Source of the DNA: Candidatus Parcubacteria bacterium
GTDB taxonomy: Bacteria > Patescibacteriota > Minisyncoccia > Phycocordibacterales > UBA9973
Reading direction: 5' to 3'
Assembly: GCA_039795715.1 (NCBI GenBank)
Contig: JBDKLD010000008.1
Location: 1 to 59,996, forward strand
Length of the DNA stretch: 59,996 bases
Part shown: positions 33,786 through 44,854 of the stretch, one piece after another
Layout: every line of letters starts with the position of its first letter
How positions within the stretch are numbered: the first letter of the stretch is position 1
Translations under genes and position numbers: made by a program
Notes under the pieces: model-generated
The model's input: the letters and a program-made list of their open reading frames with translations, nothing else
Told to the model about the DNA's origin: nothing
Databases searched by the model: none

Positions 33786-34367
33786 TTAAAGCATTGTTTC
33801 GCGGAGGCTGTTGTTGACTTCTTTCACCAAATCTTCGCGACGCATAGCTACTTGCTCAAGTAATTGGTCAGTAATTGGCTCTCTGACAATGCTTCGTTCC
33901 CCACTCTCAGTGACGTACCCAAGGTGGTAGAGAATACGAAATACTGCGAGGAGCTCGAGAGAGGTGACGTTTGAGATGAGCTTTTCTTTACTTTTTTTTG
34001 AGAGGAAATTCATAACCTCTATGATTGCCTCGTAGAGTGGCTCATTTTTCTCTTGTTCTGGTACAAGCCTACGGATGAGGCTCGCGACACGGTGAAGCAT
34101 CGCTAAAGTCGCCATATCTGGCGTCTCGATGCCGAGGAGCAAATCAGTGCTACCTGCCCTATATGCCACCTTGGTATTGATCAGGTCTATGCGGACCACC
34201 ATGTACGGCTGGAGGGCAAAACGGAGCTTGGAAGATAGCTTCCTAACACCACGTGCGTCCGCCTTCACTAGCCCAAAATCCCTCGTATAGAGAGAGATTT
34301 GCTTGTCCGCCTCGCCCCGAGCGTAGCCGCCAAGAACGAGACCTTCAGTGTGGTGGATGTGGTGCAT
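33786..34367 (-). CDS. recO: DNA repair protein RecO
   Basis: N-terminal OB-fold pattern TEGLVLGGYARGEADKQISLYTRDFGLVKADARGVRK, a short helical C-terminus, and typical size for a reduced genome. Confidence 0.7.
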   Translation of the reverse strand: MHHIHHTEGLVLGGYARGEADKQISLYTRDFGLVKADARGVRKLSSKLRFALQPYMVVRIDLINTKVAYRAGSTDLLLGIETPDMATLAMLHRVASLIRRLVPEQEKNEPLYEAIIEVMNFLSKKSKEKLISNVTSLELLAVFRILYHLGYVTESGERSIVREPITDQLLEQVAMRREDLVKEVNNSLRETML

Positions 34368-34381
34368 GGCTGAGTATTTTA

Positions 34382-35014
34382 CTACTTTTCAAAAATCATT
34401 TTATAAAGTTTTTCTGACGCTTCTATTTTTTCTTCAATTTTGTCGCTTGTCGCAATAAGTTTTAACTCTGAATAAAATGTAAGGTCTTCATTCATTATCG
34501 TCGGCAAAGAATCATACACAGACGGTGCCGAATGCCCTTTATGCTTTTCAAACCAAAGGACAACTGAAGTCTGGTAAATGTGTCCTATTTTAATAGTCAC
34601 AGCAACTGGGTCGTCACGGTAGTCTTTCATACTATCAATCCGCGCAGCGTACCAAGCCTGCCATGACTGCCATTCTTCTTTTGACATTGGCAGTTCGCTT
34701 TCGGTAATTTTTGCACAACGTTCAAGAATCTCAGTTCCAATGCCATCAACTTCAAAGAGTACCCGAGCATTACCACGGCGAAGCGACCAAGCATGCTTTT
34801 TCAGATCAACATCCGAAATCGGATAACCAATGTTTGCACCTTCGCAATTTTGTCCGAAAACTATTTCGCGATAGATTTTTCTTGGCTCTTTTAAAACAAA
34901 AAATGTATCCCAATCGCTGTGTTCTTTTTCTTTACCAACAGCACGTGAGCCATGAAGAATAATGGCAAGTGGTTGGTGTTTTTGTTTGAAATAATCGATG
35001 AGTTTTTGTTCCAT
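34382..35014 (-). CDS. Pol-beta-superfamily nucleotidyltransferase domain protein
   Basis: LAIILHGSRAVGKEKEHSDWDTFFV contains the G-S-x(n)-D-x-D minimal nucleotidyltransferase signature, followed by a helical C-terminal domain. ATG 35014 is 5 nt after the upstream stop. Confidence 0.6.
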   Translation of the reverse strand: MEQKLIDYFKQKHQPLAIILHGSRAVGKEKEHSDWDTFFVLKEPRKIYREIVFGQNCEGANIGYPISDVDLKKHAWSLRRGNARVLFEVDGIGTEILERCAKITESELPMSKEEWQSWQAWYAARIDSMKDYRDDPVAVTIKIGHIYQTSVVLWFEKHKGHSAPSVYDSLPTIMNEDLTFYSELKLIATSDKIEEKIEASEKLYKMIFEK

Positions 35015-35018
35015 GCTT

Positions 35019-35786
35019 TTAATACTTATAGTCGTACGTTTCCAATTCAATTCGGCTATAGTCGATAAGTTTTTTTGCCTGCAAATCGTAGCTGTGAGTT
35101 TGGTAAGGGTTTTCAGGAGCGTCAAGCTTAAATAAATTTTGCTGATAAACATAGACCTGACCTTTGATTGGAACGCCTGGGTAACACCACAAGACCCATT
35201 CTTCTCTACCTTGAATATATTCGTTTGGCAAAGTAAATCTTTTCTTTGAGATGAGGTATAAAATAAAGTGTTCTTCTAGAAAAAAATTCTCTTGCTCTTC
35301 GGTGAGCTCCCTTCCACAGAAAGTGGCGTCCTCTTTTACATACGCTTTGAAAAGCGTGTCATTTTCATACATTTTTTTGAAGCGCTTAAAATCTGCATCA
35401 AAATCACCTCCTTTATAATTGAGATACAGCTGATTCCAAACTTCATAGAAAAATCCATGTTGAATTTGGAAACGATCTTTTTCTTTTAAAAGAAGATTTC
35501 GAAAGCCATTATTGTGTCTCATCACAAGATTCATAAACTTCCCTTTTAAATCAGAAGCTGTCTCTCTTGAATGAAGATAGAGGTAGTCACCATAAATCAT
35601 ATTGAGTCCGATTTTTGGCTCAGATACCTTACTAGGTGAAAAATGCTTTATATACTCCAAGCACTCTGCTGGAGATTGTCCCGTAGCATGATCGACGCGA
35701 GCAAGAGAAATCGGAAAAACCAAAATGCCAAACTCTTTTGGGAGTTTATTGATATCGAAGAAAGTATTTTTTGGTAGATTTTCCAT
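35019..35786 (-). CDS. Hypothetical protein, weak cyclodipeptide-synthase-like motif pattern (see findings)
   Basis: Clean 255-aa ORF whose ATG (35786) is separated by 1 nt from the ileS stop (TAGcATG). Motifs FPIS, NFFLEEH and CYP have spacing reminiscent of CDPS. Confidence 0.6.
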   Translation of the reverse strand: MENLPKNTFFDINKLPKEFGILVFPISLARVDHATGQSPAECLEYIKHFSPSKVSEPKIGLNMIYGDYLYLHSRETASDLKGKFMNLVMRHNNGFRNLLLKEKDRFQIQHGFFYEVWNQLYLNYKGGDFDADFKRFKKMYENDTLFKAYVKEDATFCGRELTEEQENFFLEEHFILYLISKKRFTLPNEYIQGREEWVLWCYPGVPIKGQVYVYQQNLFKLDAPENPYQTHSYDLQAKKLIDYSRIELETYDYKY

Positions 35787-35787
35787 G

Positions 35788-38700
35788 CTATTTCTCAATC
35801 TTAACTTTATACATATTTTCCTCTATCTTTATCTCCTGCCCATCATTTTCAGTAAAATTGATTTGTGAGACAAGAACAGTTTTCTTGATGTCATCGGCAA
35901 ACTTCTCGAGAAGTTTTTTGCCATCCTCATTTGTTTCAACTGAAAGTGTAATCACATCGGACGGAGTCAGGCCTGCGGCTTTTCTCATATCTTGAAGCGC
36001 GCGCATCAGTTCACGGGCATTGCCTTCGGCGCGGAGCTCGGGAGTAATGTCGGTTATAAGAGTTACTACTGGAGGTGCCTCATCATTTCCAGACGACGAA
36101 AAGGTAACCTCTTTTACATTCAATTCTTCCATAATTATAGACATAAAATCGATTGCCTTGGCTGATGTACTAAAAGGATATTGTCTTACTAATAATTTTG
36201 AAAGTGGCTGACGAACTTTAATCTGATGTTTTTGGCGTTCCTCAAGACCGTAGCTTACAATTTGTCTAACTTGTTTCATATAATCAATCATCTCTTCATC
36301 AACCGTCATAGCTTCCGGCCAAACCGAAAGATGCACACTCTCCGCATCGTTCGCACCTTTCAATTTCTGCCAAATATCTTCTGCGGTAAACGGCGCAAAT
36401 GGAGCGAGTAATTTGATAAATGTTTTTATCACAAAATAGAGCGTAGCCTTCGCATCTTTATTTCCCTCCTTTATTCTGTCTCGAGAGCGTCGCAGGTACC
36501 AAGTAGAAAGATCGTCTACAAACAGATCGATTGGTCTTGTAGCTTCGACAATATCGTAGTTTTCCATTCCTATAGTAACTTCACCGGCAAGTTGGTTGAG
36601 TCGAGACAGTATCCATACATCGAGCACATTTTCAGATGCAGGAACAGTGTCGTTTTCCAAAGACGTATCTCGATAGAGTTCGTAAAAAGTGAGAACGTTA
36701 TAGAAACGTCCGATCAATTTCTTATTAATATCATCAACAAGTTTTTCAGAAAAATTGGCGTCCTCGCCTTTCATGAGCGGACTCGACATGAGGTAAAGTC
36801 TTAGAGCGTCGACACCATATTTATCGAATAAAATCCACGGATCGGGAAAGTTACCTTTAGACTTTGACATTTTCTGACCATCTTCAGCTTGAAGTGTCCC
36901 CGTTGTGACAACATGTTCAAATGGTGCACGATCAAAAAGGATAGAGGAAATAACAAGTGAGTAATAAAACCAGGTACGGGTTTGGGCAATGTACTCGGCA
37001 ACAAAACCGGCTGGAAAATTTTCTTTTTGCCAACTTGGTCTATCAAACGGAAAGTGATCTTGGGCAAAAGGCATTGAGCCTGATTCAAACCAGCAATCTA
37101 TTACTTCAGGGATGCGTTGATACTCGTCCCCGCTTTCATCGACAAGTGTAATCGCGTCAATGTAAGGTCGATGAAAATCAAGTTCAAAGTTAGCATTATG
37201 CGGAAATGGCACAAAATCAATTTTACGATGCTCAGCATTTTGGAAATAGTGATAGTCCGGAACATTTTTTATGGCATCGAGTGCTGCTTCGGTCGAAAGT
37301 GCTTGCGCACCAGTAGTCAGCAGCCAACTTGGTCCGCCGTGTGTCACAATCAAGATTTTTTTATTCTGATGTTTCTGTTCAAGCTCAAAGATAAAATCGA
37401 GCATGCGCTTGCGCACATCAGCATACGACTCACCACCTTCTGGTGCTAGGAAAAAGTTACTCGTCGTTTTAGGAAAAGCATCATGATAATCATTCCATTT
37501 TTTGCCATCATATTTTGGACCAAGCTTCATTTCAACCAACCGGTCGTCTTCGACGACATCACTCACCTTGAGACCATAATGTGCAGCAACTTCATAAGCC
37601 GTCGACTTGGTACGTGAAAACGGCGAGCTAAAAATGAGATCAATGTCGGTTTCTTGTTTGAGCGCAGCCGCAGCATCTTTCGTCACTTTTTTGCCAGCTT
37701 CAGTGAGCGAAGCATGTTCTCCCGGATCATCAGTAATAAGACCTTTGAGATTTGCATCAGTCTCACCATGGCGCATGACATAGTATGTATTTCCAGATTT
37801 TTTAGTTTTTTTCTTGAGTTCTGCGAGTGAACTGATGAACATTGTTTTGCCTTTTTTATTTTTCCAGATTGGCAAAGGCGAAGCCCAGTAACGATTACGC
37901 GAAATAGTCCAATCGGGCGCACTTTCGAGAATTGCGCCAAAGCGTCCGTCTTTGAGATGCGCAGGTACCCAATTCATTTCCTTGGCATGCTCTTGCAGAT
38001 CTTTTTTTACTTTCTGAATATTTACAAACCATGACGGCAAAGCGTAGTAATATAGCGGAGTTTCGCAACGATAGCAGTGCGGATATGAGTGCACAATTTT
38101 TTCTTTTTCAAAAAGATGGTGATTGTGCGCCAAGTATTTAACAATTTCAATATCACCCGCCTGGTGGTTATCTTTTGGTTTTACAAATTGACCGGCAAAA
38201 TGCGTGACTTCATCCTTAAATCTGCCTTGCGATGTGACGTGGATAATCCAAGGCAGACCTTCTTTCTTGGCTAAGTTCATATCGTCTTCGCCGAAAGCTG
38301 GCGCAATGTGAACAATCCCAGTACCCGCATCAAGTGTCACAAAATCCGCGCCAACTACTGACCAAAGTTTATCGGTTTTAATTGCATCATCATGTGTATA
38401 GTAGTCGAAAATCGGCTCGTACTTTTTACCGACAAGATCTTTGCCTTTTACTTCACCGATTACCTCATGAGCAACTTTGACAACTGTGATTCTTTCTTTT
38501 GCCAAAATGTAGGTTGCTTCTTCGATTTTGATTTTTACGTAGTCAAACTCCGGATTGACTGCGAGCGCTACGTTACCGGGCAACGTCCATGGCGTCGTAG
38601 TCCATGCGATCAAATACGTTTTTGGTTCTCCGACGATTGCGAATTTTGCGTAGACAGAAATATCGGTGATATCTTTATAACTATTATCCATCGCGATTTC

Positions 38701-39288
38701 AGAATTCGCGATCGGTGTTTCGCAACGCGGGCAATATGCAAGCACTCTCACTCCTTCATATATGAGATCTTTTTTATTTAACTCGGATAGTGCCCACCAG
38801 ACTGATTCAATGAAATTATTATCCATCGTCTTGTAGCCATTATCAAAATCAACCCAACGACCAATACGATCAACGGTCTTTTTCCACTCTCCAACGTACG
38901 TCAAAACTTTACTACGGGCTGTTTCTGTAAACTTTTCTATGCCATATGCCTCAATATCTTTTCTTCCAGATATACCAAGTTCCTTTTCAACAATATTTTC
39001 AATCGGCAAACCATGACAATCCCAACCCCAACGACGAGGAACATGGTAACCTTGCATCGTCTTATAACGACCAACAACATCTTTTGCTGTACTACCAAGG
39101 ATGTGACCATAGTGAGGAAGCCCTGTGGCAAATGGCGGACCATCATAAAATACATAGTTCCCTCTTGGAGAAGACTTAGAGAGTGATTTTTGGAACATAC
39201 CCTCGCTCTGCCAAAAAGCCAAGATTTTTTCTTCGCGCTCAGCTTGGGGAGATTTCTTTTGTTCCTTGGCGTCTTTGTTGATATCCAT
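35788..39288 (-). CDS. ileS: Isoleucyl-tRNA synthetase (type 2-like) carrying an internal histidine-phosphatase domain
   Basis: PPFATGLPHYGH (HIGH), editing-domain WTTTPWTLPGN, CYRCETPL, WTISRNRYWASPLPIW, RIPEVIDCWFESGSMP, KMSKSKGN. 1166 aa. Confidence 0.95.
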   Translation of the reverse strand: MDINKDAKEQKKSPQAEREEKILAFWQSEGMFQKSLSKSSPRGNYVFYDGPPFATGLPHYGHILGSTAKDVVGRYKTMQGYHVPRRWGWDCHGLPIENIVEKELGISGRKDIEAYGIEKFTETARSKVLTYVGEWKKTVDRIGRWVDFDNGYKTMDNNFIESVWWALSELNKKDLIYEGVRVLAYCPRCETPIANSEIAMDNSYKDITDISVYAKFAIVGEPKTYLIAWTTTPWTLPGNVALAVNPEFDYVKIKIEEATYILAKERITVVKVAHEVIGEVKGKDLVGKKYEPIFDYYTHDDAIKTDKLWSVVGADFVTLDAGTGIVHIAPAFGEDDMNLAKKEGLPWIIHVTSQGRFKDEVTHFAGQFVKPKDNHQAGDIEIVKYLAHNHHLFEKEKIVHSYPHCYRCETPLYYYALPSWFVNIQKVKKDLQEHAKEMNWVPAHLKDGRFGAILESAPDWTISRNRYWASPLPIWKNKKGKTMFISSLAELKKKTKKSGNTYYVMRHGETDANLKGLITDDPGEHASLTEAGKKVTKDAAAALKQETDIDLIFSSPFSRTKSTAYEVAAHYGLKVSDVVEDDRLVEMKLGPKYDGKKWNDYHDAFPKTTSNFFLAPEGGESYADVRKRMLDFIFELEQKHQNKKILIVTHGGPSWLLTTGAQALSTEAALDAIKNVPDYHYFQNAEHRKIDFVPFPHNANFELDFHRPYIDAITLVDESGDEYQRIPEVIDCWFESGSMPFAQDHFPFDRPSWQKENFPAGFVAEYIAQTRTWFYYSLVISSILFDRAPFEHVVTTGTLQAEDGQKMSKSKGNFPDPWILFDKYGVDALRLYLMSSPLMKGEDANFSEKLVDDINKKLIGRFYNVLTFYELYRDTSLENDTVPASENVLDVWILSRLNQLAGEVTIGMENYDIVEATRPIDLFVDDLSTWYLRRSRDRIKEGNKDAKATLYFVIKTFIKLLAPFAPFTAEDIWQKLKGANDAESVHLSVWPEAMTVDEEMIDYMKQVRQIVSYGLEERQKHQIKVRQPLSKLLVRQYPFSTSAKAIDFMSIIMEELNVKEVTFSSSGNDEAPPVVTLITDITPELRAEGNARELMRALQDMRKAAGLTPSDVITLSVETNEDGKKLLEKFADDIKKTVLVSQINFTENDGQEIKIEENMYKVKIEK
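37198..37788 (-). other. Histidine phosphatase superfamily (PGAM-like, branch 1) domain inserted in ileS, aa ~501-697
   Basis: TYYVMRHGETDAN (RHG catalytic His, Asn), SSPFSRTKSTA (Arg), GGESYADV (Glu), ILIVTHGG (second His). In frame and uninterrupted within ileS. Confidence 0.8.
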
Positions 39289-39393: not shown

Positions 39394-39418
39394 AAAAAAG
39401 CACCCAAAACGAGTGCTT
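39394..39418 (-). terminator. Rho-independent terminator overlapping the stop of the HD-domain gene
   Basis: Minus strand reads AAGCACtcgttttggGTGCTT followed by ttttttatt. Confidence 0.6.
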
Positions 39419-40061
39419 AGATAACATACATAAATCTTCCGATATTTTCTTTTGCCAAATCTTCATATTTTGTAAAGTGGTATGTGCCAAAAATTTTCCG
39501 AGCAAGAAATCGCTTGAGAAATATTTTTTGACCATATATGAATTCACCCCTACTACATACGGCACGATGTTCCCTCGCCAGTTTCTCGGCATTACCTTTG
39601 AACACTTCCCATGGTACAGCTAGAGAAGAGAGGTCGATATCGGTGACAAGCCATTCATCTTCTTTCTCCGGTGCATGATCATGCCTGGTAGCCAGAATGT
39701 ATCGCTCTATGTCGCAAATGTAATTTTCATTTACCCCAAGCTTTGTGAGGCAACTCCTGGCGAGCTTCGCGGAAAGTACTTCATTTTCTGGAAAACCCGG
39801 AATGTAGACTGCGTCATGGAAGAAGAGCGCAGCATAAACATTTTGACGTGCGAGATACCCTTGAGAGTAATCAATTTTTAAAATCCGGAGTACCTTTTCC
39901 AAACAATCAGTGAGGTGAAAAAGTGTATGGTAGTGGCGATGATTTTCGCCGTACATAGCTTTGATACTCGCAATGAGCGATGGCACAAAGATCAACCGAT
40001 CTGGCTTGCAGGTAATATGGCTATTGAATGTCTCGAGAGACAAAGGATCTATTTTTTTCAT
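39417..40061 (-). CDS. HD-superfamily metal-dependent phosphohydrolase (COG4339-like)
   Basis: HRHYHTLFHLTDCL and FFHDAVY are the H...HD metal-binding motifs. ATG 40061 preferred over the TTG at 40076. Confidence 0.65.
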   Translation of the reverse strand: MKKIDPLSLETFNSHITCKPDRLIFVPSLIASIKAMYGENHRHYHTLFHLTDCLEKVLRILKIDYSQGYLARQNVYAALFFHDAVYIPGFPENEVLSAKLARSCLTKLGVNENYICDIERYILATRHDHAPEKEDEWLVTDIDLSSLAVPWEVFKGNAEKLAREHRAVCSRGEFIYGQKIFLKRFLARKIFGTYHFTKYEDLAKENIGRFMYVI

Positions 40062-40129
40062 GAGAATTTTTCCCAACTATACTGACATCAAGGAAAATAG
40101 CAAGCGACGGAAAACTACAAAAAGCCATA

Positions 40130-40153
40130 AAAAAGCTCCCTTTATCAGGGAGC
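40130..40153 (-). terminator. Rho-independent terminator
   Basis: Minus strand reads GCTCCCTgataaAGGGAGC followed by ttttt. Confidence 0.65.
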
Positions 40154-40160
40154 AATGCAA

Positions 40161-40958
40161 TTAGTTATTTTCGTACACTCTTCTTTTCATGTCATTTGGA
40201 ATAATTTTCTGATTGTAGAAAGGAACGGCTTTCATTTTCAGAGCAGATGCCTTGACGTATTCTTTTTTTGCACCAACTGAGCTTTCCCAATTTGGTAATT
40301 GAAGAAGTGTTGAAAACTTCCCTGTTTCCATAAGTGGAAAATAGAACCTATCTAAAAATACTTGCCCAAAATATCCGCGAATCTCATGTTTTTTTATCTC
40401 ATGGACAGCACTGAAAAGTGGCTGGAATGACATTTGATTGAAAACCCGATAACCACTGTTGGCAGCGTTCGCAACTGCATTACTAAATGCAGTAAGATTT
40501 TCTTCTTTTGTTCCGCCACCCGTACTAATTGGTCCAGAAACCAATGCTAATGTGTGCTGGTCGTTTATGACATCAAGTGCAAGTAAAAATGCTTTTTCGA
40601 GGGCATTGTCATACGGCTTGATCGCATAGAGTTTTTCTAGGTGTTCATTGGTCCAATTGTAACGATGCAAAAATTGAAATGTGCCGACTTTCTGACCTAA
40701 AACTTTTGTACCCAAAATAGCAATATGGTCATCGACAAAAGTATCTTTGAAACCGGGAACAAACTTTGGGATAGCAACGAAAGGATGGTCATGGATGTCG
40801 GTTTCGTGGAAACAAATACCGACTATTTCGTTTGTGTCTGAAGCGACTTTCATGAGACGATCGTAGTCTGGATGATCAAAGTAAGGAGCTTCGAGATGTG
40901 TGCCAACTTTGGCAATGAGGGAGAGCAATTCTGGTTTGGTGTCTTTGTATCTTTTCAT
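40161..40958 (-). CDS. Hypothetical protein (possibly nucleoside-metabolism related by context)
   Basis: Clean ORF between the PNP and HD genes. The segment LVSGPISTGGGTKEEN is vaguely Rossmann/deoxyribosyltransferase-like, but this is not diagnostic. Confidence 0.45.
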   Translation of the reverse strand: MKRYKDTKPELLSLIAKVGTHLEAPYFDHPDYDRLMKVASDTNEIVGICFHETDIHDHPFVAIPKFVPGFKDTFVDDHIAILGTKVLGQKVGTFQFLHRYNWTNEHLEKLYAIKPYDNALEKAFLLALDVINDQHTLALVSGPISTGGGTKEENLTAFSNAVANAANSGYRVFNQMSFQPLFSAVHEIKKHEIRGYFGQVFLDRFYFPLMETGKFSTLLQLPNWESSVGAKKEYVKASALKMKAVPFYNQKIIPNDMKRRVYENN

Positions 40959-41017
40959 GGTATTCGATTTTAAAAATGTTCGTTTGCATAGTATCAAATA
41001 TTAGTGTTTTGTCAAAT

Positions 41018-41038
41018 AAAAAACTCTCTTTCGAGAGT
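41018..41038 (-). terminator. Rho-independent terminator after the PNP gene
   Basis: Minus strand reads ACTCTCgaaaGAGAGT followed by tttttatt. Confidence 0.6.
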
Positions 41039-41039
41039 C

Positions 41040-41906
41040 CTATTTAACCGCGATGATTAAACTCCGAACAACATCCGTAAGCTTGGCGTCATTTTCTTTT
41101 GCCATTCTTGTAACCTCTGAGTGAGAAACCGCATGGGCATTTTCATCAAAATGATTGTTGGTGATGAGCGACACACCAGCGATACTGATTTTCGGATTCT
41201 GAGCTTTAATCGCCCAAACTTCTGGCACAGTAGACATACCGACAGAGTTGAAGCCACGATCCCGCAAGTCTATGGCAGTACAAGGGCTTTCATATTCTGG
41301 GCCTTGAACCGCAAAATAGCTACCTAGGGAATTTGGAAATTTCGCTCTAAAGTACCAATTGAGGTCAAACAAATTTGAACAGTTCACAAATCTTCTATTA
41401 TCTTCAAAGAAAGCGATATTGGGACTTGGAATATTCCCCGCGCAATCTTTCAAGAAAATAATTTTCCCGGCTTCAAAAGTGAGCCCTCCAGCCGCATTGA
41501 GCAAAATAAAATTCTTGGCACCGTAGCGAATGCAAACCCTCATCATAAACGCTGCTTCGTGAGCAGATCCGCTTTCGTAAAAATGATGCCTGCCTTGGAG
41601 AAGCCAGAGCACGAGTCGTCGTGGCTTTTTCTTCTTGCCATCAAACGACTGGTGTACCGTGACTTCAGCAACGACGAGCATACCGATATGGTTTGCGACA
41701 GTTGGCACAGGAAAGCCAATTTTTTTATAAGGAACCATCATGGTAAATCTGCCATTTTTTCGAATCACGTCGAGTAATCCTTCAATTGGCGCACTACCTT
41801 GCTGGATGACAATATCTGGCTTTTCAATACCGCCAGTGGTGAGAATTTTCTGAGCAGAATTTTCAATTCTTTTCTTGTATTTGCTGATGTAGTCTCTATC
41901 TATCAT
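41040..41906 (-). CDS. Purine nucleoside phosphorylase / MTA phosphorylase family (trimeric PNP type)
   Basis: SVGMSTVPEVWAIKA and VSLITNN are hallmark PNP/MTAP motifs. Length is 288 aa. Confidence 0.8.
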   Translation of the reverse strand: MIDRDYISKYKKRIENSAQKILTTGGIEKPDIVIQQGSAPIEGLLDVIRKNGRFTMMVPYKKIGFPVPTVANHIGMLVVAEVTVHQSFDGKKKKPRRLVLWLLQGRHHFYESGSAHEAAFMMRVCIRYGAKNFILLNAAGGLTFEAGKIIFLKDCAGNIPSPNIAFFEDNRRFVNCSNLFDLNWYFRAKFPNSLGSYFAVQGPEYESPCTAIDLRDRGFNSVGMSTVPEVWAIKAQNPKISIAGVSLITNNHFDENAHAVSHSEVTRMAKENDAKLTDVVRSLIIAVK

Positions 41907-42008
41907 ATGTAGTTATTTAAAATTGTTTTGCTATTTCTACATGATATTGGTTATTTTGTCAAACAAAAAAACCGCTCCAAACTGAAGCGATTTTTTCATA
42001 ATATTTTC

Positions 42009-43064
42009 TTAAGCAAAAACAAATTTCGGTATGTATCCCCTCCGATTGAGGTAGAAAATCACAAGCAAAGCGAGCACTATAACAATAATTGTCGGATTGA
42101 CAGGAGAAAAGATTTTCGCCAAGCCCCAAACGCTTATCCAGTTGGCATTGATAGTGCCATTTACTGTTTCTATGTTATCAGTGAATGTTTCATCTTGTTT
42201 GACATTGTTATCTTGATTGAGTTTGGCAGCCGCGATTTGGTTATTGTAGTTTTTCTGCTGGGTATTGTAGCTAGTATTTTCTTCGGCTTTCTTTTGCTCA
42301 AGCATTGATTTTTCCCAAATCTTTGTATTTTGCTGTGAAGTCAGCAAGTTCTTCTGTGTTTGGTCAGTTGAGGCAGCAGCTTCTGTTGTCTTGGCGTTTA
42401 TTTCTGTCTGCTTAGTTGCGATTTGCTCATTGAGCGTCGCCAATGTTTGATTGTGCTTTGTGGCTAGCGAAGCCTTGGCTTTTTCAAGCGCAGAAAGGTT
42501 GTTGCTAATATCTTCTGCTTGTTGCTCTATTCCCTGCTTCTGACTGAGAAGGTTTGTTGAAGACTCAGAAACATTTACCAATTTTTCATTGGTTAGGCTT
42601 TCGATTTCATCCTTGAATGCTTCAAACTTAGACTTTGGCACAACAAAAGAAATGTAGCCGTACTTATCTGTGCTACTTATATTATCCACTCGCCCATCCG
42701 CACCTTTGACAATATTCTTGGCGTCTTTGATCACGTCGGCAACATGCCTTGTATAAATCACTGCATTGTAATTTGTCTTGAGGAATTCACGTGTGTCTTT
42801 GTATGAAGATTGTTCATTGTATGGGTATGGATAGATATCCGGCATCATTCCATTACCAGCAGTATCTGTTTCCATCATTGGTGGCATTGTCATCCCTGGA
42901 TATCTATAATTACTACTAGTGCCCATACTCGGACCAACACCAAGTGTAGTACCTAAGTATCCACGAACAAACCAGCCCAAAAAGATGACAGCGACAATCA
43001 CCACAAGCCACGTCACTTTTTTCTTTGAGATTTTAATTATTTTACGAGTGTCATTATTTTCCAT
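42009..43064 (-). CDS. DUF4349-like membrane protein (N- and C-terminal TM helices, central coiled coil)
   Basis: TM WLVVIVAVIFLGWFV, a Q/N/T-rich coiled-coil segment, and a C-terminal TM TIIVIVLALLVIFYL. This architecture is typical of DUF4349 proteins. Confidence 0.5.
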   Translation of the reverse strand: MENNDTRKIIKISKKKVTWLVVIVAVIFLGWFVRGYLGTTLGVGPSMGTSSNYRYPGMTMPPMMETDTAGNGMMPDIYPYPYNEQSSYKDTREFLKTNYNAVIYTRHVADVIKDAKNIVKGADGRVDNISSTDKYGYISFVVPKSKFEAFKDEIESLTNEKLVNVSESSTNLLSQKQGIEQQAEDISNNLSALEKAKASLATKHNQTLATLNEQIATKQTEINAKTTEAAASTDQTQKNLLTSQQNTKIWEKSMLEQKKAEENTSYNTQQKNYNNQIAAAKLNQDNNVKQDETFTDNIETVNGTINANWISVWGLAKIFSPVNPTIIVIVLALLVIFYLNRRGYIPKFVFA

Positions 43065-43141
43065 AGTTATATTTTCTATTAGTAATGACCTAATAGTGGC
43101 ATATATATGTTTTTCAGCAAGCACGACCCAGGAAAACGAAA

Positions 43142-44854
43142 TTACATTTTCGCTGGAACTTTGAGCCCGAGCAGGTGCAAGCCTTTGGTGAGCACAGTCG
43201 CAACCGCACCTGAAACCGCAATTTTGTATGAGCTTGTTGGGTCTTCGGCGTCGATGATAGTTTCGGTCGCGTAGAAAAAGTTGAATGCGCCGGCGAGCTC
43301 CATGAGGTATGTCGCGATGTGGTGAGGTTGGCGTTCTTCAACTGCGCGCAGTGACGCAAAAGGAAAACGTTCGAGAATGCGCTCGATTGGAAGGGTGACA
43401 TCGGTTGGATTGTGGAGGTGTGTTTTGATACTGGCTTCTTCGGATTTGCGACAAATCGCTCGCGCACGGGTTGTAGCGTACTGCAAGTACGGGCCCGAGT
43501 CGCCGTCAAAAGAAATAGATTTGTCAAAATCGTAAATAATATCCATGCCGATATTGGAGCGCAAAATAGAATACTTCACTGCCGCAACACCAACAGCTTC
43601 AGCGACAACTTCGCGTTCATCGTGTGTAAACTCGCGATCTTTGGTTATGGTCATGATGGCTTCTTTTGCATCGCGAATGAGCGACTCGCCAGTGACGACA
43701 TTGCCGAGGCGCGACGACATTTTCCCTGTCGCAAAGCGCATCATACCGTGCGTGATGTGTTCCATTCTCTCGGCGTAATTTTCGCTCGGAAACATTTGGC
43801 GAATGGCTTCGGTGACGACATCCATGTAGTCCTTCTGCTCTACGGCAGTGGTGACGATAGAGAGATCAGGTTCAAGCTCGGTGAACTTTGTTACAGTGAG
43901 GGCAAGTTCCTTGGCGTCGTAGAGCGGCAAACCGTTACTCGTCAGGAAAACGCGAGTGTGCAGTTTTAGATTGTGCTTCTCTGCATGGAAAATAATCGCG
44001 CCTTCAGAATCTTCAAATACACCTTTGTCTTTGTACTCTCTGACAAGTTCGGCGCCACGAGTCGCCATCTCGGATTCAAAGTAGTATTTGTCGAACTTGG
44101 TGCCGAGTATTGCATAGAGTGCTTCAAAAGCTTCGAGTGTAACTTTGCGTCCCTCATCATAAAGCGCAGTATAGTCGCTAGTCTTTTCATATAGTTTTTT
44201 ATTGAGCACATCTATTTCCGCCTTTGCAACTTCGTCTTTTTCATAAATACTGTTGCCATACGAATAGCATTCGCCGATGAAGTTAGCTTTTTCGCTGACC
44301 GAGTTGCCGAGAATTTGTCCACCTTTTTTTACAATACCGTAAATAGCAATTGCTACATGGAGACCAATGTCGCCTTGGTAATTGGCACGAGTAACTTGTC
44401 CGCCATGAAATTCTACGAGTCGTGCAATCGATTCGCCAATTGCATTCGACATGAGGTGTCCGATATGGAAAGGCTTGAAAGGGTTTGGCTGTGTATATTC
44501 GACAATCACTTTTTTATTATCAAAAATGTCACTCTTGCCGAAGTGCTCGCCGTCACGAAGGATGAATTCCAAAATACTGGTGTAGTAGTCACGCGAGAGA
44601 TGGAAGTTTATGAAGCCCGGACCAGCAACATCAACCGAGGAAATGTATGGTGGCAAGGCTTTCTGCATTTCTGCCACAATTGTTTCAGCTATTACTTTTG
44701 GCGCTTTGCCGTACTGTTTGGAAATAGAAAGTGCTGTTGATGACATGTAATCACCGCGCCCCGACTCTTTTGGATATGTAATCTCAGGCTTGCCAACCAT
44801 GTAGCCAGCCTTGAGCATCGTTTCTTCTAAAAATGTTTGGAGTAATTCTTTCAT
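43142..44854 (-). CDS. argS: Arginyl-tRNA synthetase
   Basis: NPFKPFHIGHLMSNAIGESIARL (HIGH), MSSRLGN (degenerate KMSKS typical of ArgRS), and a C-terminal DALR domain ending in M. Confidence 0.93.
   Translation of the reverse strand: MKELLQTFLEETMLKAGYMVGKPEITYPKESGRGDYMSSTALSISKQYGKAPKVIAETIVAEMQKALPPYISSVDVAGPGFINFHLSRDYYTSILEFILRDGEHFGKSDIFDNKKVIVEYTQPNPFKPFHIGHLMSNAIGESIARLVEFHGGQVTRANYQGDIGLHVAIAIYGIVKKGGQILGNSVSEKANFIGECYSYGNSIYEKDEVAKAEIDVLNKKLYEKTSDYTALYDEGRKVTLEAFEALYAILGTKFDKYYFESEMATRGAELVREYKDKGVFEDSEGAIIFHAEKHNLKLHTRVFLTSNGLPLYDAKELALTVTKFTELEPDLSIVTTAVEQKDYMDVVTEAIRQMFPSENYAERMEHITHGMMRFATGKMSSRLGNVVTGESLIRDAKEAIMTITKDREFTHDEREVVAEAVGVAAVKYSILRSNIGMDIIYDFDKSISFDGDSGPYLQYATTRARAICRKSEEASIKTHLHNPTDVTLPIERILERFPFASLRAVEERQPHHIATYLMELAGAFNFFYATETIIDAEDPTSSYKIAVSGAVATVLTKGLHLLGLKVPAKM

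What the first reader, a model, noticed from the sequence alone, without database searches (positions are those of the whole stretch)
37198..37788. Complete histidine-phosphatase (PGAM-like) domain inserted inside the catalytic core of isoleucyl-tRNA synthetase
The 1166-aa ileS ORF keeps all IleRS hallmarks: HIGH = PHYGH, the editing-domain TPWTLPGN motif, and KMSKSKGN.

The anomaly lies between two conserved blocks, WTISRNRYWASPLPIW (aa ~461-475) and FHRPYID / RIPEVIDCWFESGSMP (aa ~705-740). As I recall the Thermus enzyme, IleRS has only a ~40-60 aa linker here, often a Zn knuckle. This protein has ~195 extra residues in that position.

The extra residues carry every catalytic signature of the histidine phosphatase superfamily:
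- YYVMRHGETDAN: phospho-acceptor His plus Asn.
- SSPFSRTKSTA: Arg.
- GGESYADV: acid/base Glu.
- ILIVTHGG: second His.

The reading frame is continuous, so this is a single polypeptide. The Cys knuckle that normally flanks this site is absent.

I know of no described aaRS with an embedded PGAM-type phosphatase. One speculative role is 3'-end tRNA phosphate removal or repair before charging, or hydrolysis of a phosphorylated nucleotide by-product.
Basis: partly seen in the sequence, partly recalled or inferred. Interest (0 to 1): 0.85.

Follow-up and report, generated by a model that had tools for sequence, protein, structure and literature searches.

The report
Phosphatase domain nested inside isoleucyl-tRNA synthetase
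The isoleucine-charging enzyme of this tiny-genome (Patescibacteria) bacterium carries a complete, apparently active phosphatase inside its catalytic core; hundreds of related species share this or encode the phosphatase as a separate gene just upstream, yet I found no paper describing it and its substrate is unknown.

Summary
Window 35788-39288 (-) encodes a 1166-aa type-2 IleRS (TIGR00392, 853 bits) with intact HIGH, editing and KMSKS motifs. About 212 residues (aa 492-703) sit in its CP3 hairpin and form a complete branch-1 histidine phosphatase (PF00300, E=3e-32).

It is not an assembly artefact. All 120 best full-length homologues have the insert, as do at least 172 GTDB species representatives of Parcubacteria/Paceibacteria, including a closed chromosome.

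The catalytic residues are almost invariant: R506/H507 181/181, R559 190/190, E620 186/192, H650 191/193. AlphaFold folds the domain confidently, and its nearest structures are small-metabolite phosphatases (PspA, GpgP, PhoE).

New here: in related lineages the same phosphatase is a separate ~190-aa gene directly upstream of an insert-less ileS (argS-HP-ileS-recO; 48 of 50 resolvable metagenome loci). Fused and split forms interleave on the IleRS tree. Other lineages carry two or three phosphatase domains at other IleRS sites.

The IleRS-phosphatase partnership therefore looks selected.

I found no literature describing this. I rate it a new variant of a known kind, of moderate to high interest.

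The parts
35788..39288 (-). ileS: 1166-aa type-2 (eukaryote-like) isoleucyl-tRNA synthetase with a nested phosphatase
   Evidence: ORF. TIGR00392 852.6 bits. Best solved relative is P. megaterium IleRS2 8c8u/8c8v by sequence and by fold.
37864..39288 (-). IleRS N-terminal part, aa 1-475: Rossmann half 1 with HIGH (PHYGH 58-62), CP core with CxxC...CxxC (186/189/405/408), CP1 editing domain (TPWTLPGN 232-239), CP2, and the WTISRNRYWASPLPIW block
37816..37863 (-). CP3 N-terminal arm, aa 476-491 (KNKKGKTMFISSLAEL). It is shared with insert-less IleRS; the CxxC of the zinc knuckle is lost here.
   Evidence: Alignments to insert-less IleRS break at WIN 491-493 and 704. pLDDT above 90.
37180..37815 (-). 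Inserted segment, aa 492-703: basic linker KKKTKKSGN, histidine phosphatase domain, and a return strand (NAEHRKIDFVPFPHN...)
   Evidence: AlphaFold pLDDT mostly 85-96.
37285..37782 (-). His_Phos_1 (PF00300) match, aa 503-668
   Evidence: E=3.3e-32. Best solved matches are PspA 4ij5/4ij6 and PhoE 1h2e/1ebb.
37768..37773 (-). Codons for R506-H507 of the RHG motif; H507 is the predicted phospho-acceptor
   Evidence: Invariant in 181/181 aligned homologues
37612..37614 (-). Codon for R559 (phosphate pocket)
   Evidence: 190/190
37429..37431 (-). Codon for E620 (predicted proton donor)
   Evidence: 186/192
37339..37341 (-). Codon for H650 (second catalytic His)
   Evidence: 191/193
37117..37179 (-). 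CP3 C-terminal arm, aa 704-724 (DFHRPYIDAITLVDESGDEYQ). Relatives have the second CxC of the knuckle here.
36649..37116 (-). Rossmann half 2, aa 725-880, with RIPEVIDCWFESGSMP and KMSKS (nt 36859-36873)
35791..36621 (-). Anticodon-binding domain (aa 890-1031) and type-2 C-terminal domain DUF5915 (aa 1074-1166)
43142..44854 (-). argS, the conserved upstream neighbour. In split-form relatives the phosphatase gene lies between argS and ileS.
33786..34367 (-). recO, the conserved downstream neighbour of ileS in both fused and split loci

Best explanation
This is the housekeeping type-2 IleRS of a Parcubacteria/Paceibacteria (Patescibacteria, CPR) bacterium. A complete, catalytically competent branch-1 histidine phosphatase of the compact PhoE/PspA/GpgP type is nested in the tip of its CP3 hairpin. 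The phosphatase belongs to the same family as one that related lineages encode as a separate ~190-aa gene directly upstream of an insert-less ileS, sometimes overlapping it (argS-HP-ileS-recO). It is therefore a dedicated partner of IleRS that has been built into the synthetase, or in some lineages released again. Shown: the architecture, its lineage-wide conservation, near-invariant catalytic residues, a confidently folded independent domain on confidently predicted connectors, the split-gene counterpart, and further insertion sites. Inferred: the protein has two independent active sites. IleRS charges tRNA-Ile as usual. The phosphatase hydrolyses a phosphomonoester through a phospho-His507 intermediate, with R506, R559 and H650 holding the phosphate and E620 acting as proton donor. 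My best guess for the substrate class is a small phosphorylated metabolite or nucleotide (about 0.5), with selection favouring co-production and co-localisation with IleRS rather than channelling between the two sites. The actual substrate is unknown.
For: Domain calls. Insertion point and size against solved IleRS2 and against insert-less relatives. CP3 is a topologically variable subdomain next to the active site: PMC7191050 and PMC12077802. Breadth: all 120 best full-length homologues at 58-76% identity carry PF00300. The exhaustive search gives 63 representatives at E<=1e-30 and 714 at E<=1e-10, with 39 full-length proteins holding the domain at ~470-750. At least 172 GTDB species representatives carry it, including closed chromosome CP060229.1, all colinear IleN-insert-IleC. 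Catalytic residues: R506 and H507 181/181, R559 190/190, E620 186/192, H650 191/193, at ~35-45% overall identity. Structure: full-length pLDDT 86 and pTM 0.76, with connectors above 90; insert alone pLDDT 90 and pTM 0.89; nearest folds are iPSP 4ij6 (TM 0.76), mycobacterial hydrolase 6s2q, GpgP Rv2419c and PhoE. Split form: the stand-alone phosphatase lies upstream of insert-less ileS. In the metagenome scan 48 loci are split (46 with argS upstream), 24 fused and 2 lack ileS nearby. The window shares the argS...ileS...recO-639aa-class II aaRS backbone. On the IleRS tree split L085 is sister to fused L045 in 100/100 bootstraps, and the split forms are never monophyletic. Other sites and multiple copies: P0208, P0203 and L090.
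Against: No biochemical data exist, and conserved catalytic residues do not prove activity. The substrate class is inferred only from the nearest relatives, at 18-27% identity; protein-directed members of the superfamily such as SixA and PGAM5 have the same core. I could not obtain model coordinates, so the orientation of the phosphatase pocket relative to the synthetic site, the KMSKS loop and the tRNA path is untested. The insert evolves faster than the Rossmann core (identity to the window protein 0.43 against 0.76 among the more distant homologues). Conserved adjacency inside a translation-gene cluster could reflect co-expression alone. The direction of change (fusion or fission) is unresolved, and the phosphatase similarities do not match the IleRS tree, probably because of compositional bias.
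Confidence: 0.72

Rival explanations
1. No mechanistic link. A general metabolic or scavenging phosphatase happened to lie in a translation-gene operon upstream of ileS and was fixed inside a permissive surface loop (CP3) by constructive neutral evolution. Tethering to IleRS has no functional meaning beyond co-expression.
For: CP3 already varies in topology among IleRSs. The nearest relatives are broad or metabolite phosphatases. The insert is less conserved than the synthetase core. The domain tolerates being separate, being in CP3, or being in other loops.
Against: Internal insertion into the core of an essential enzyme is risky, yet it is kept across at least 172 species. His_Phos domains occur at four or more distinct IleRS sites, and in two or three copies in some lineages. 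In the split state the gene stays directly next to ileS in 48 of 50 resolvable loci, sometimes overlapping it. More distant stand-alone homologues, such as P0113, are not next to ileS. No other aaRS turned up with this domain among the hits seen.
Confidence: 0.3
2. tRNA-end healing. The phosphatase removes a 3'-phosphate or a 2',3'-cyclic phosphate from the tRNA-Ile acceptor end, or from another tRNA-borne phosphate, so that IleRS can charge it.
For: CP3 flanks the active site. The insert is preceded by a conserved basic linker, KTKKSGN. All known positions (CP3, the anticodon-binding domain, stand-alone) are compatible with reaching a bound tRNA somewhere. The stand-alone forms are very basic, pI 8.8-10.2.
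Against: The searchable literature holds no precedent for a branch-1 histidine phosphatase acting on RNA ends. The nearest structures are all metabolite phosphatases. The basic charge is confounded by generally basic, AT-rich proteomes. A damaged 3' end would not be specific to tRNA-Ile. The anticodon-binding-domain site lies at the other end of the enzyme from the acceptor end, about 70 A by the N34-to-CCA distance quoted in PMC11685878. Cyclic phosphodiesterase chemistry is not typical of this fold (my own knowledge).
Confidence: 0.12
3. Protein phosphatase or regulator. The domain dephosphorylates IleRS itself, for example a Ser in or near the KMSKS loop phosphorylated by a HipA/HipT-like toxin kinase, or a phospho-His or phospho-Ser on a partner protein. 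That would protect or regulate charging.
For: Members of the superfamily (SixA, PGAM5, Sts-1) are protein phosphatases, and HipA/HipT kinases inactivate class I synthetases GltX and TrpS at the ATP-site loop (both from my own knowledge). The stoichiometric, physically tethered arrangement would suit a cis-acting phosphatase. CP3 neighbours the active site.
Against: SixA is a weak match (36.5 bits against a 74.5 cut-off). No kinase partner was seen in the window neighbourhood. Insertion sites far from KMSKS also exist. There is no direct evidence of IleRS phosphorylation.
Confidence: 0.08
4. Non-catalytic module. The fold serves only as an enlarged CP3 (a structural, tRNA-binding or ligand-sensing domain), with the catalytic residues kept for ligand binding.
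For: CP3 is a site of lineage-specific elaboration. One copy in the triple-insert protein P0208 has Gln in place of the catalytic Glu.
Against: All five catalytic residues are near-invariant across about 190 sequences at 35-45% identity. The same protein exists free-standing with the same residues.
Confidence: 0.05
5. Assembly chimera, frameshift or mobile-element artefact.
For: None found. The window is a single assembled sequence, and I could not map reads.
Against: The same colinear architecture appears in hundreds of independent assemblies, including a closed chromosome. There is no GC break and there are no flanking repeats. No intein or transposase domains were detected.
Confidence: 0.01

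Closest known systems
Type-2 (eukaryote-like, mupirocin-resistant) bacterial IleRS, e.g. Priestia megaterium IleRS2 (PDB 8c8u/8c8v) and Thermus thermophilus IleRS (1ile)
   Same: Same domain order (Rossmann, CP core, CP1 editing, CP2, CP3, Rossmann, anticodon-binding domain, DUF5915 C-terminal domain), with HIGH and KMSKS. 717 bits to 8c8u; fold TM 0.77 normalised to the target.
   Different: Those enzymes have ~18 residues between chain positions 461 and 480, or a small zinc-binding CP3. Here ~212 extra residues form a whole enzyme domain, and this particular protein has lost the CP3 cysteines.
Compact branch-1 histidine phosphatases: metal-independent phosphoserine phosphatase PspA (4ij5/4ij6), PhoE/YhfR (1h2e/1ebb), glucosyl-3-phosphoglycerate phosphatase Rv2419c, CobC
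   Same: Same fold and the same catalytic set (RHG, Asn, Arg, Glu, His). E=1e-12 by sequence; TM up to 0.76.
   Different: Only 18-27% identical. It scores below every NCBIfam equivalog cut-off, is embedded in another enzyme rather than free, and has its C-terminal tail replaced by a strand that returns to CP3.
Bifunctional RNase H / acid phosphatase (Rv2228c type, NCBIfam NF005567)
   Same: A nucleic-acid enzyme joined to a CobC-like histidine phosphatase. This is the best-scoring NCBIfam phosphatase model (86 bits).
   Different: That is an end-to-end fusion rather than a nested insertion, and the score is far below the 326-bit cut-off. The functional link between its two halves is also unclear, to my knowledge.
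IleRS with an added GNAT acetyltransferase domain (NCBIfam NF040702 'ileS_w_GNAT')
   Same: A precedent for a bacterial IleRS acquiring a second enzymatic domain. P0239 even combines a His_Phos insert with a C-terminal GNAT.
   Different: A different added domain. The window protein scores 354 bits against a 1999-bit cut-off and is not a member.
6-phosphofructo-2-kinase/fructose-2,6-bisphosphatase
   Same: A histidine phosphatase domain permanently joined to another enzyme in one polypeptide; a weak sequence match (E~1e-6).
   Different: A tandem fusion with opposing activities on one metabolite. Here the partner is a tRNA synthetase, and no shared substrate is evident.

Membership tests
Isoleucyl-tRNA synthetase (TIGR00392 equivalog) | Whole-protein score above the curated cut-off | tested here: met
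   852.6 bits against 621.4
Isoleucyl-tRNA synthetase (class Ia) | HIGH and KMSKS signature motifs plus CP1 editing-domain motifs | tested here: met
   PHYGH 58-62, KMSKS 806-810, WTTTPWTLPGN and GTGIVHIAPAFGEDD present
Type-2 (eukaryote-like) IleRS | C-terminal DUF5915-type domain instead of the bacterial zinc-binding domain; closest to IleRS2/MupA-like enzymes | tested here: met
   PF19302 at 1074-1166. Best PDB hits are IleRS2 8c8u at 717 bits against IleRS1 8c9e at 285 bits. MupA/MupB exception models score 711 bits, below their 1900 cut-off, so it is not MupA or MupB itself.
Isoleucyl-tRNA synthetase | Ile-specific aminoacylation of tRNA-Ile | not testable with these tools
   Needs an enzyme assay
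Histidine phosphatase superfamily, branch 1 (PF00300) | Score above the gathering threshold | tested here: met
   112.2 bits against 21.7, E=3.3e-32, profile positions 2-165 of 194
Histidine phosphatase superfamily, branch 1 | Catalytic core: RHG His and Arg, second Arg, second His, acidic proton donor | tested here: met
   R506, H507, R559, E620 and H650 are present and near-invariant in homologues
Histidine phosphatase superfamily, branch 1 | Alpha/beta fold of the family | tested here: met
   AlphaFold pLDDT 90; Foldseek probability 1.00 and TM 0.66-0.77 to PspA, PhoE and GpgP
Histidine phosphatase superfamily, branch 1 | Phosphomonoesterase activity through a phospho-histidine intermediate | not testable with these tools
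   Needs an assay of wild type against H507A
Cofactor-dependent phosphoglycerate mutase (dPGM) | Equivalog score above cut-off | tested here: not met
   NF038349 68.3 bits against 225; PRK01295 33.3 against 316. Mutases rank below the phosphatases in the fold search.
Alpha-ribazole phosphatase CobC (TIGR03162) | Equivalog score above cut-off | tested here: not met
   77.6 bits against 162.9
Phosphoserine phosphatase PspA (NF045917) | Equivalog score above cut-off | tested here: not met
   57.3 bits against 350, although it is the best solved-structure neighbour
Phosphohistidine phosphatase SixA (TIGR00249) | Equivalog score above cut-off | tested here: not met
   36.5 bits against 74.5
Bifunctional RNase H/acid phosphatase (NF005567) | Equivalog score above cut-off and an RNase H domain | tested here: not met
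   86 bits against 326, phosphatase half only

The most novel reading that the evidence does not exclude
The phosphatase is a dedicated catalytic partner of IleRS that acts on the synthetase's own macromolecular world. It would either remove a blocking phosphate from tRNA-Ile or reverse an inhibitory phosphorylation of IleRS. That would be a previously unknown repair or regulatory activity built into an aminoacyl-tRNA synthetase, conserved across a major branch of the Candidate Phyla Radiation, and present either as an operon partner or as a nested domain.
Probability: 0.2. Interest if true: 0.85.

Novelty: new variant of a known kind. Interest (0 to 1): 0.62.

Why it matters
Added domains on aminoacyl-tRNA synthetases are a recognised route to new functions, but catalytic add-ons in bacterial enzymes are rare. 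I know of none nested inside the catalytic core. Here an apparently active phosphatase has been kept with IleRS across hundreds of species of an abundant, poorly understood bacterial radiation, as a fused domain, as a neighbouring gene, or in several copies. That pattern is the classic comparative-genomics signature of a functional partnership, and it gives a directly testable question: which phosphate ester matters to isoleucine charging in these minimal cells? There is also a practical point. NCBI-sourced records often name these proteins only 'class I tRNA ligase family protein'. The embedded His_Phos domain could likewise be mistaken for a phosphoglycerate mutase in metabolic reconstructions.

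Tried and rejected
1. Chimeric assembly, frameshift or mobile insertion. Rejected: the architecture is conserved across independent assemblies including a closed chromosome, with no GC break, no flanking repeats, and no intein or transposase domain.

2. Split ileS genes. In one search every hit was 562 aa or shorter, which suggested split genes. This came from the short query retrieving contig-end fragments; full-length proteins appeared. P0028 is a frameshift-broken long-read copy. P0059 is broken only because UGA is a sense codon in that organism.

3. Membership of specific phosphatase families (dPGM, CobC, PspA, SixA, RNase H/acid phosphatase). All score below their curated cut-offs.

4. 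A neighbour-joining tree of phosphatase domains, to ask whether all IleRS-associated copies share one origin. It was star-like and unresolved.

5. Agreement between stand-alone phosphatases and the inserts of their IleRS's nearest fused relatives. There was none: all stand-alones resemble P0170's insert best. P0170 and the stand-alones share a strongly basic, Lys-rich composition, so I treat this as compositional attraction.

6. The acidic-insert versus basic-stand-alone contrast as evidence for RNA binding. It is confounded by genome-wide basic proteomes in the split-form lineages.

7. RNA genes in the window that might hint at a tRNA link. There are none, and there is no second His_Phos copy in the window.

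8. Measuring the distance and orientation between the phosphatase pocket and the synthetic site or tRNA path. Model coordinates are not exposed.

9. Literature. Eight full-text searches and one targeted read of a 2026 preprint on IleRS domain evolution found no description.
Full report
**1.

The window has one continuous 1166-codon ORF on the minus strand, 35788..39288.

Pfam finds His_Phos_1 (PF00300) at residues 503-668, with E=3.3e-32 and 112 bits against a cut-off of 21.7. The class I synthetase model is split around it. Anticodon_1 and DUF5915 follow. NCBIfam's ileS equivalog TIGR00392 scores 852.6 bits against a cut-off of 621.4.

GC content is flat across the borders. No repeats flank the segment beyond short chance matches.

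**2. Where the extra domain sits**

The best solved relative is Priestia megaterium IleRS2 (8c8u, 717 bits). It aligns to query 14-479 and 697-1066 using chain residues 9-461 and 480-852. So roughly 218 residues here correspond to an 18-residue stretch in that enzyme.

Insert-less Patescibacteria IleRSs are 51-56% identical over the N-terminal part. Their alignments break exactly at residues 491-493 and 704. The inserted segment is therefore about aa 492-703 (nt 37180-37815), replacing a ~9-residue turn.

In published IleRS nomenclature this is the CP3 subdomain. Its topology differs between Candida, Thermus and Staphylococcus enzymes, and only the Thermus enzyme has a zinc motif there (PMC7191050). 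The base of CP3 borders the active site (PMC12077802).

The window protein has no cysteine between residues 408 and 732. Many insert-bearing relatives keep the CxxC...CxC knuckle on either side of the phosphatase. The phosphatase is thus nested inside the knuckle hairpin rather than substituted for it.

**3. It is not an artefact and not rare**

- A search with the insert plus flanks returned about 40 Patescibacteria proteins carrying both PF00133 and PF00300.
- The full-length query returned 120 best hits at 58-76% identity and 1135-1232 aa. All carry PF00300. Sources label them 'isoleucyl-tRNA synthetase' or 'class I tRNA ligase family protein', and one is a 2015 GW2011 Parcubacteria entry.
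- An exhaustive HMMER scan of 1.84 billion cluster representatives, using the insert alone, gave 63 hits at E<=1e-30 and 714 at E<=1e-10. Thirty-nine listed hits are at least 1050 aa, with the match at about residues 470-750 and the same motif spacing.
Their titles read Paceibacterota, Nomura-, Zambryski-, Adler-, Taylor- and Wolfebacteria, and they include the closed chromosome CP060229.1.
- All 80 retrieved loci are colinear IleRS-N, insert, IleRS-C.

**4. The phosphatase looks active**

I aligned 181-195 homologous domains at about 35-45% overall identity.

| Residue | Conservation |
|---|---|
| R506 | 181/181 |
| H507 | 181/181 |
| N513 | 162/181 |
| R559 | 190/190 |
| E620 | 186/192 |
| H650 | 191/193 |

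The insert evolves faster than the Rossmann core. Identity to the window protein is 0.43 against 0.76 among the more distant homologues. That is about the same rate as the IleRS C-terminal domain.

AlphaFold2 with a 76-sequence alignment gives mean pLDDT 86 and pTM 0.76. The insert scores mostly 85-96 and both connectors score above 90. The insert alone gives pLDDT 90 and pTM 0.89.

The whole model matches type-2 IleRS structures best. The insert matches metal-independent phosphoserine phosphatase (4ij6, TM 0.76), mycobacterial hydrolase 6s2q, glucosyl-3-phosphoglycerate phosphatase Rv2419c, PhoE, Entamoeba PSP, a riboflavin-pathway histidine phosphatase and CobC. All of these rank ahead of the mutases and the bisphosphatase. 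None of the NCBIfam equivalog models reaches its cut-off. It is a distinct subfamily of the compact, ~200-aa phosphatase type.

**5. The same phosphatase exists as a separate gene next to ileS**

The closest free-standing relatives are P0090, P0094, P0252 and P0244, at 33-37% identity to the insert.

- Each is encoded between argS and an insert-less ileS of 938-961 aa (the P0244 contig holds only the start of ileS). Where the CP3 region was read (L081, L085), the zinc knuckle is intact.
- Spacing ranges from a 19-nt overlap to a few nucleotides, and recO lies a little downstream.
- The true start is MKLNN(T/K)Y..MRHGE. This matches a 192-aa Candidatus Portnoybacteria entry, PJE57524.1.
- The window has the same backbone: argS, four small genes, ileS, two genes, recO, a 639-aa protein, then a class II synthetase. 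Most fused loci share it, with argS upstream in 51 of 80 and recO downstream in 59 of 80. None has a second phosphatase copy.
- A metagenome scan seeded with the stand-alone forms returned 80 loci: 48 split (46 with argS upstream, most with gaps of 145 nt or less), 24 fused, 6 too short to classify, and 2 without ileS nearby.
- A more distant stand-alone homologue, P0113, sits in an unrelated oxaloacetate decarboxylase context.

**6. The state has changed more than once, and other insertion sites exist**

I built a neighbour-joining IleRS tree with the insert masked (869 columns, 96 sequences). The three split-form enzymes fall inside the fused clade. Split L085 is sister to fused L045 in 100/100 bootstraps. 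The split forms are never monophyletic (0/100), and L093 is always far from L081. At least two transitions must have occurred.

I cannot say which direction they went. Phosphatase similarities do not track the IleRS tree, probably because of Lys-rich compositional bias.

Other lineages have different arrangements.

- **L090.** This gene reads as one ORF only if UGA is a sense codon. It has a CP3 copy plus a second copy in the anticodon-binding domain. P0203 has the same arrangement.
- **P0208.** It has three copies: one in CP3 but after the DLHKHFVD motif, one after DCWFESGSMP...HYPF, and one in the anticodon-binding domain. The first has Gln in place of the catalytic Glu.

**7. Interpretation**

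Recurrent fusion at several sites, conserved and sometimes overlapping adjacency when the genes are separate, and invariant catalytic residues together argue that an active phosphatase is a selected partner of IleRS in these bacteria.

What it hydrolyses is not shown. The nearest relatives point to a small phosphomonoester, which I put at about 0.5. Because the partnership tolerates the split state and distant insertion sites, selection seems to act on co-production and co-localisation rather than on a fixed channel between the two active sites.

The same is true of a protein-phosphatase role, for example reversal of HipA-like phosphorylation near KMSKS (about 0.08; the HipA analogy comes from my own knowledge). 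A purely neutral hitch-hiking explanation (about 0.3) is the main rival. A non-catalytic role (about 0.05) and an artefact (under 0.01) are unlikely.

**8. Novelty**

The two components are textbook families. The nested architecture and the operon partnership are visible in public sequence databases. Even so, I found no paper describing them in eight full-text searches and one targeted read of a 2026 preprint on IleRS domain evolution. I classify it as a new variant of a known kind.

A specialist would probably be surprised that a whole bacterial class makes its only visible IleRS with an embedded second enzyme. The finding also sets up a clear experiment. Interest is limited by the unknown substrate and by the fact that the feature is widespread rather than unique. 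Overall I score interest at 0.62.

Noticed in passing
L090 (Logan SRR25490548 contig, 4157 nt), whole locus: This ileS was called as three ORFs but reads as one continuous ORF when UGA is translated (code 25 or 4): 7 in-frame stops under code 11 against 2 under code 25. It is a UGA-recoded Patescibacteria lineage whose IleRS carries two His_Phos domains, one in CP3 and one in the anticodon-binding domain.
   Followed up: partly
P0208 (1087 aa, JGI/ENA metagenome protein): This IleRS has three His_Phos domains, none exactly at the window's insertion point. The first copy has GGQS instead of GGES, so the catalytic Glu is replaced by Gln.
   Followed up: partly
P0239 (1066 aa, JGI): An IleRS-like protein combining an IS200-type Y1 transposase domain (aa 340-461, inside the editing region), a His_Phos insert and a C-terminal GNAT acetyltransferase. 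It may be a read-through or pseudogene, or a real multi-domain oddity.
   Followed up: no
window 39417-43124 (-): Four small genes lie between argS and ileS that are absent from the compact argS-ileS loci of relatives: a weak DUF4407-like protein, a PNP_UDP_1 phosphorylase-superfamily protein, a weak DUF4406-like protein, and a 219-aa protein with no Pfam hit. This looks like a lineage-specific insertion into a conserved operon.
   Followed up: partly
window 34382-35798 (-): Between ileS and recO there is a Pol-beta-type nucleotidyltransferase (34382-35152), possibly of the MNT kind found in toxin-antitoxin pairs (my own reading). A 259-aa ORF with no family hit (35019-35798) overlaps it by 134 nt, and that ORF in turn overlaps the ileS stop by 11 nt.
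   Followed up: no
L085-L087, about 1.0-2.7 kb (upstream of argS): A reverse transcriptase (RVT_1) lies a little upstream of the argS-HP-ileS cluster, with a bAvd-like accessory gene called in L087. Together they suggest a diversity-generating retroelement.
   Followed up: no
window 1-59996: No tRNA, tmRNA or Rfam-detectable RNA gene in the whole 60-kb window.
   Followed up: yes
stand-alone phosphatases P0090, P0094, P0252 and P0241 versus inserted domains: Stand-alone ileS-adjacent phosphatases are strongly basic (pI 8.8-10.2, net charge up to +28), whereas inserted domains are acidic (median pI 5.7). The contrast is confounded by generally basic, AT-rich proteomes in the split-form genomes, and one fused insert (P0170) is also basic.
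   Followed up: yes
P0071 cluster (members of 33 to 1549 aa, several on NCBI contigs): A divergent IleRS clade, 28% identical over the query region, whose CP3 phosphatase carries a further ~40-residue internal expansion. Cluster members are heavily fragmented (223- and 339-aa pieces), and one member is 1549 aa long. This could be another recoded lineage.
   Followed up: no
annotation of homologues: NCBI-sourced names for these full-length proteins are mostly the generic 'class I tRNA ligase family protein' rather than isoleucine--tRNA ligase. The window protein nevertheless passes the TIGR00392 cut-off, so the insert may be degrading automated naming.
   Followed up: no
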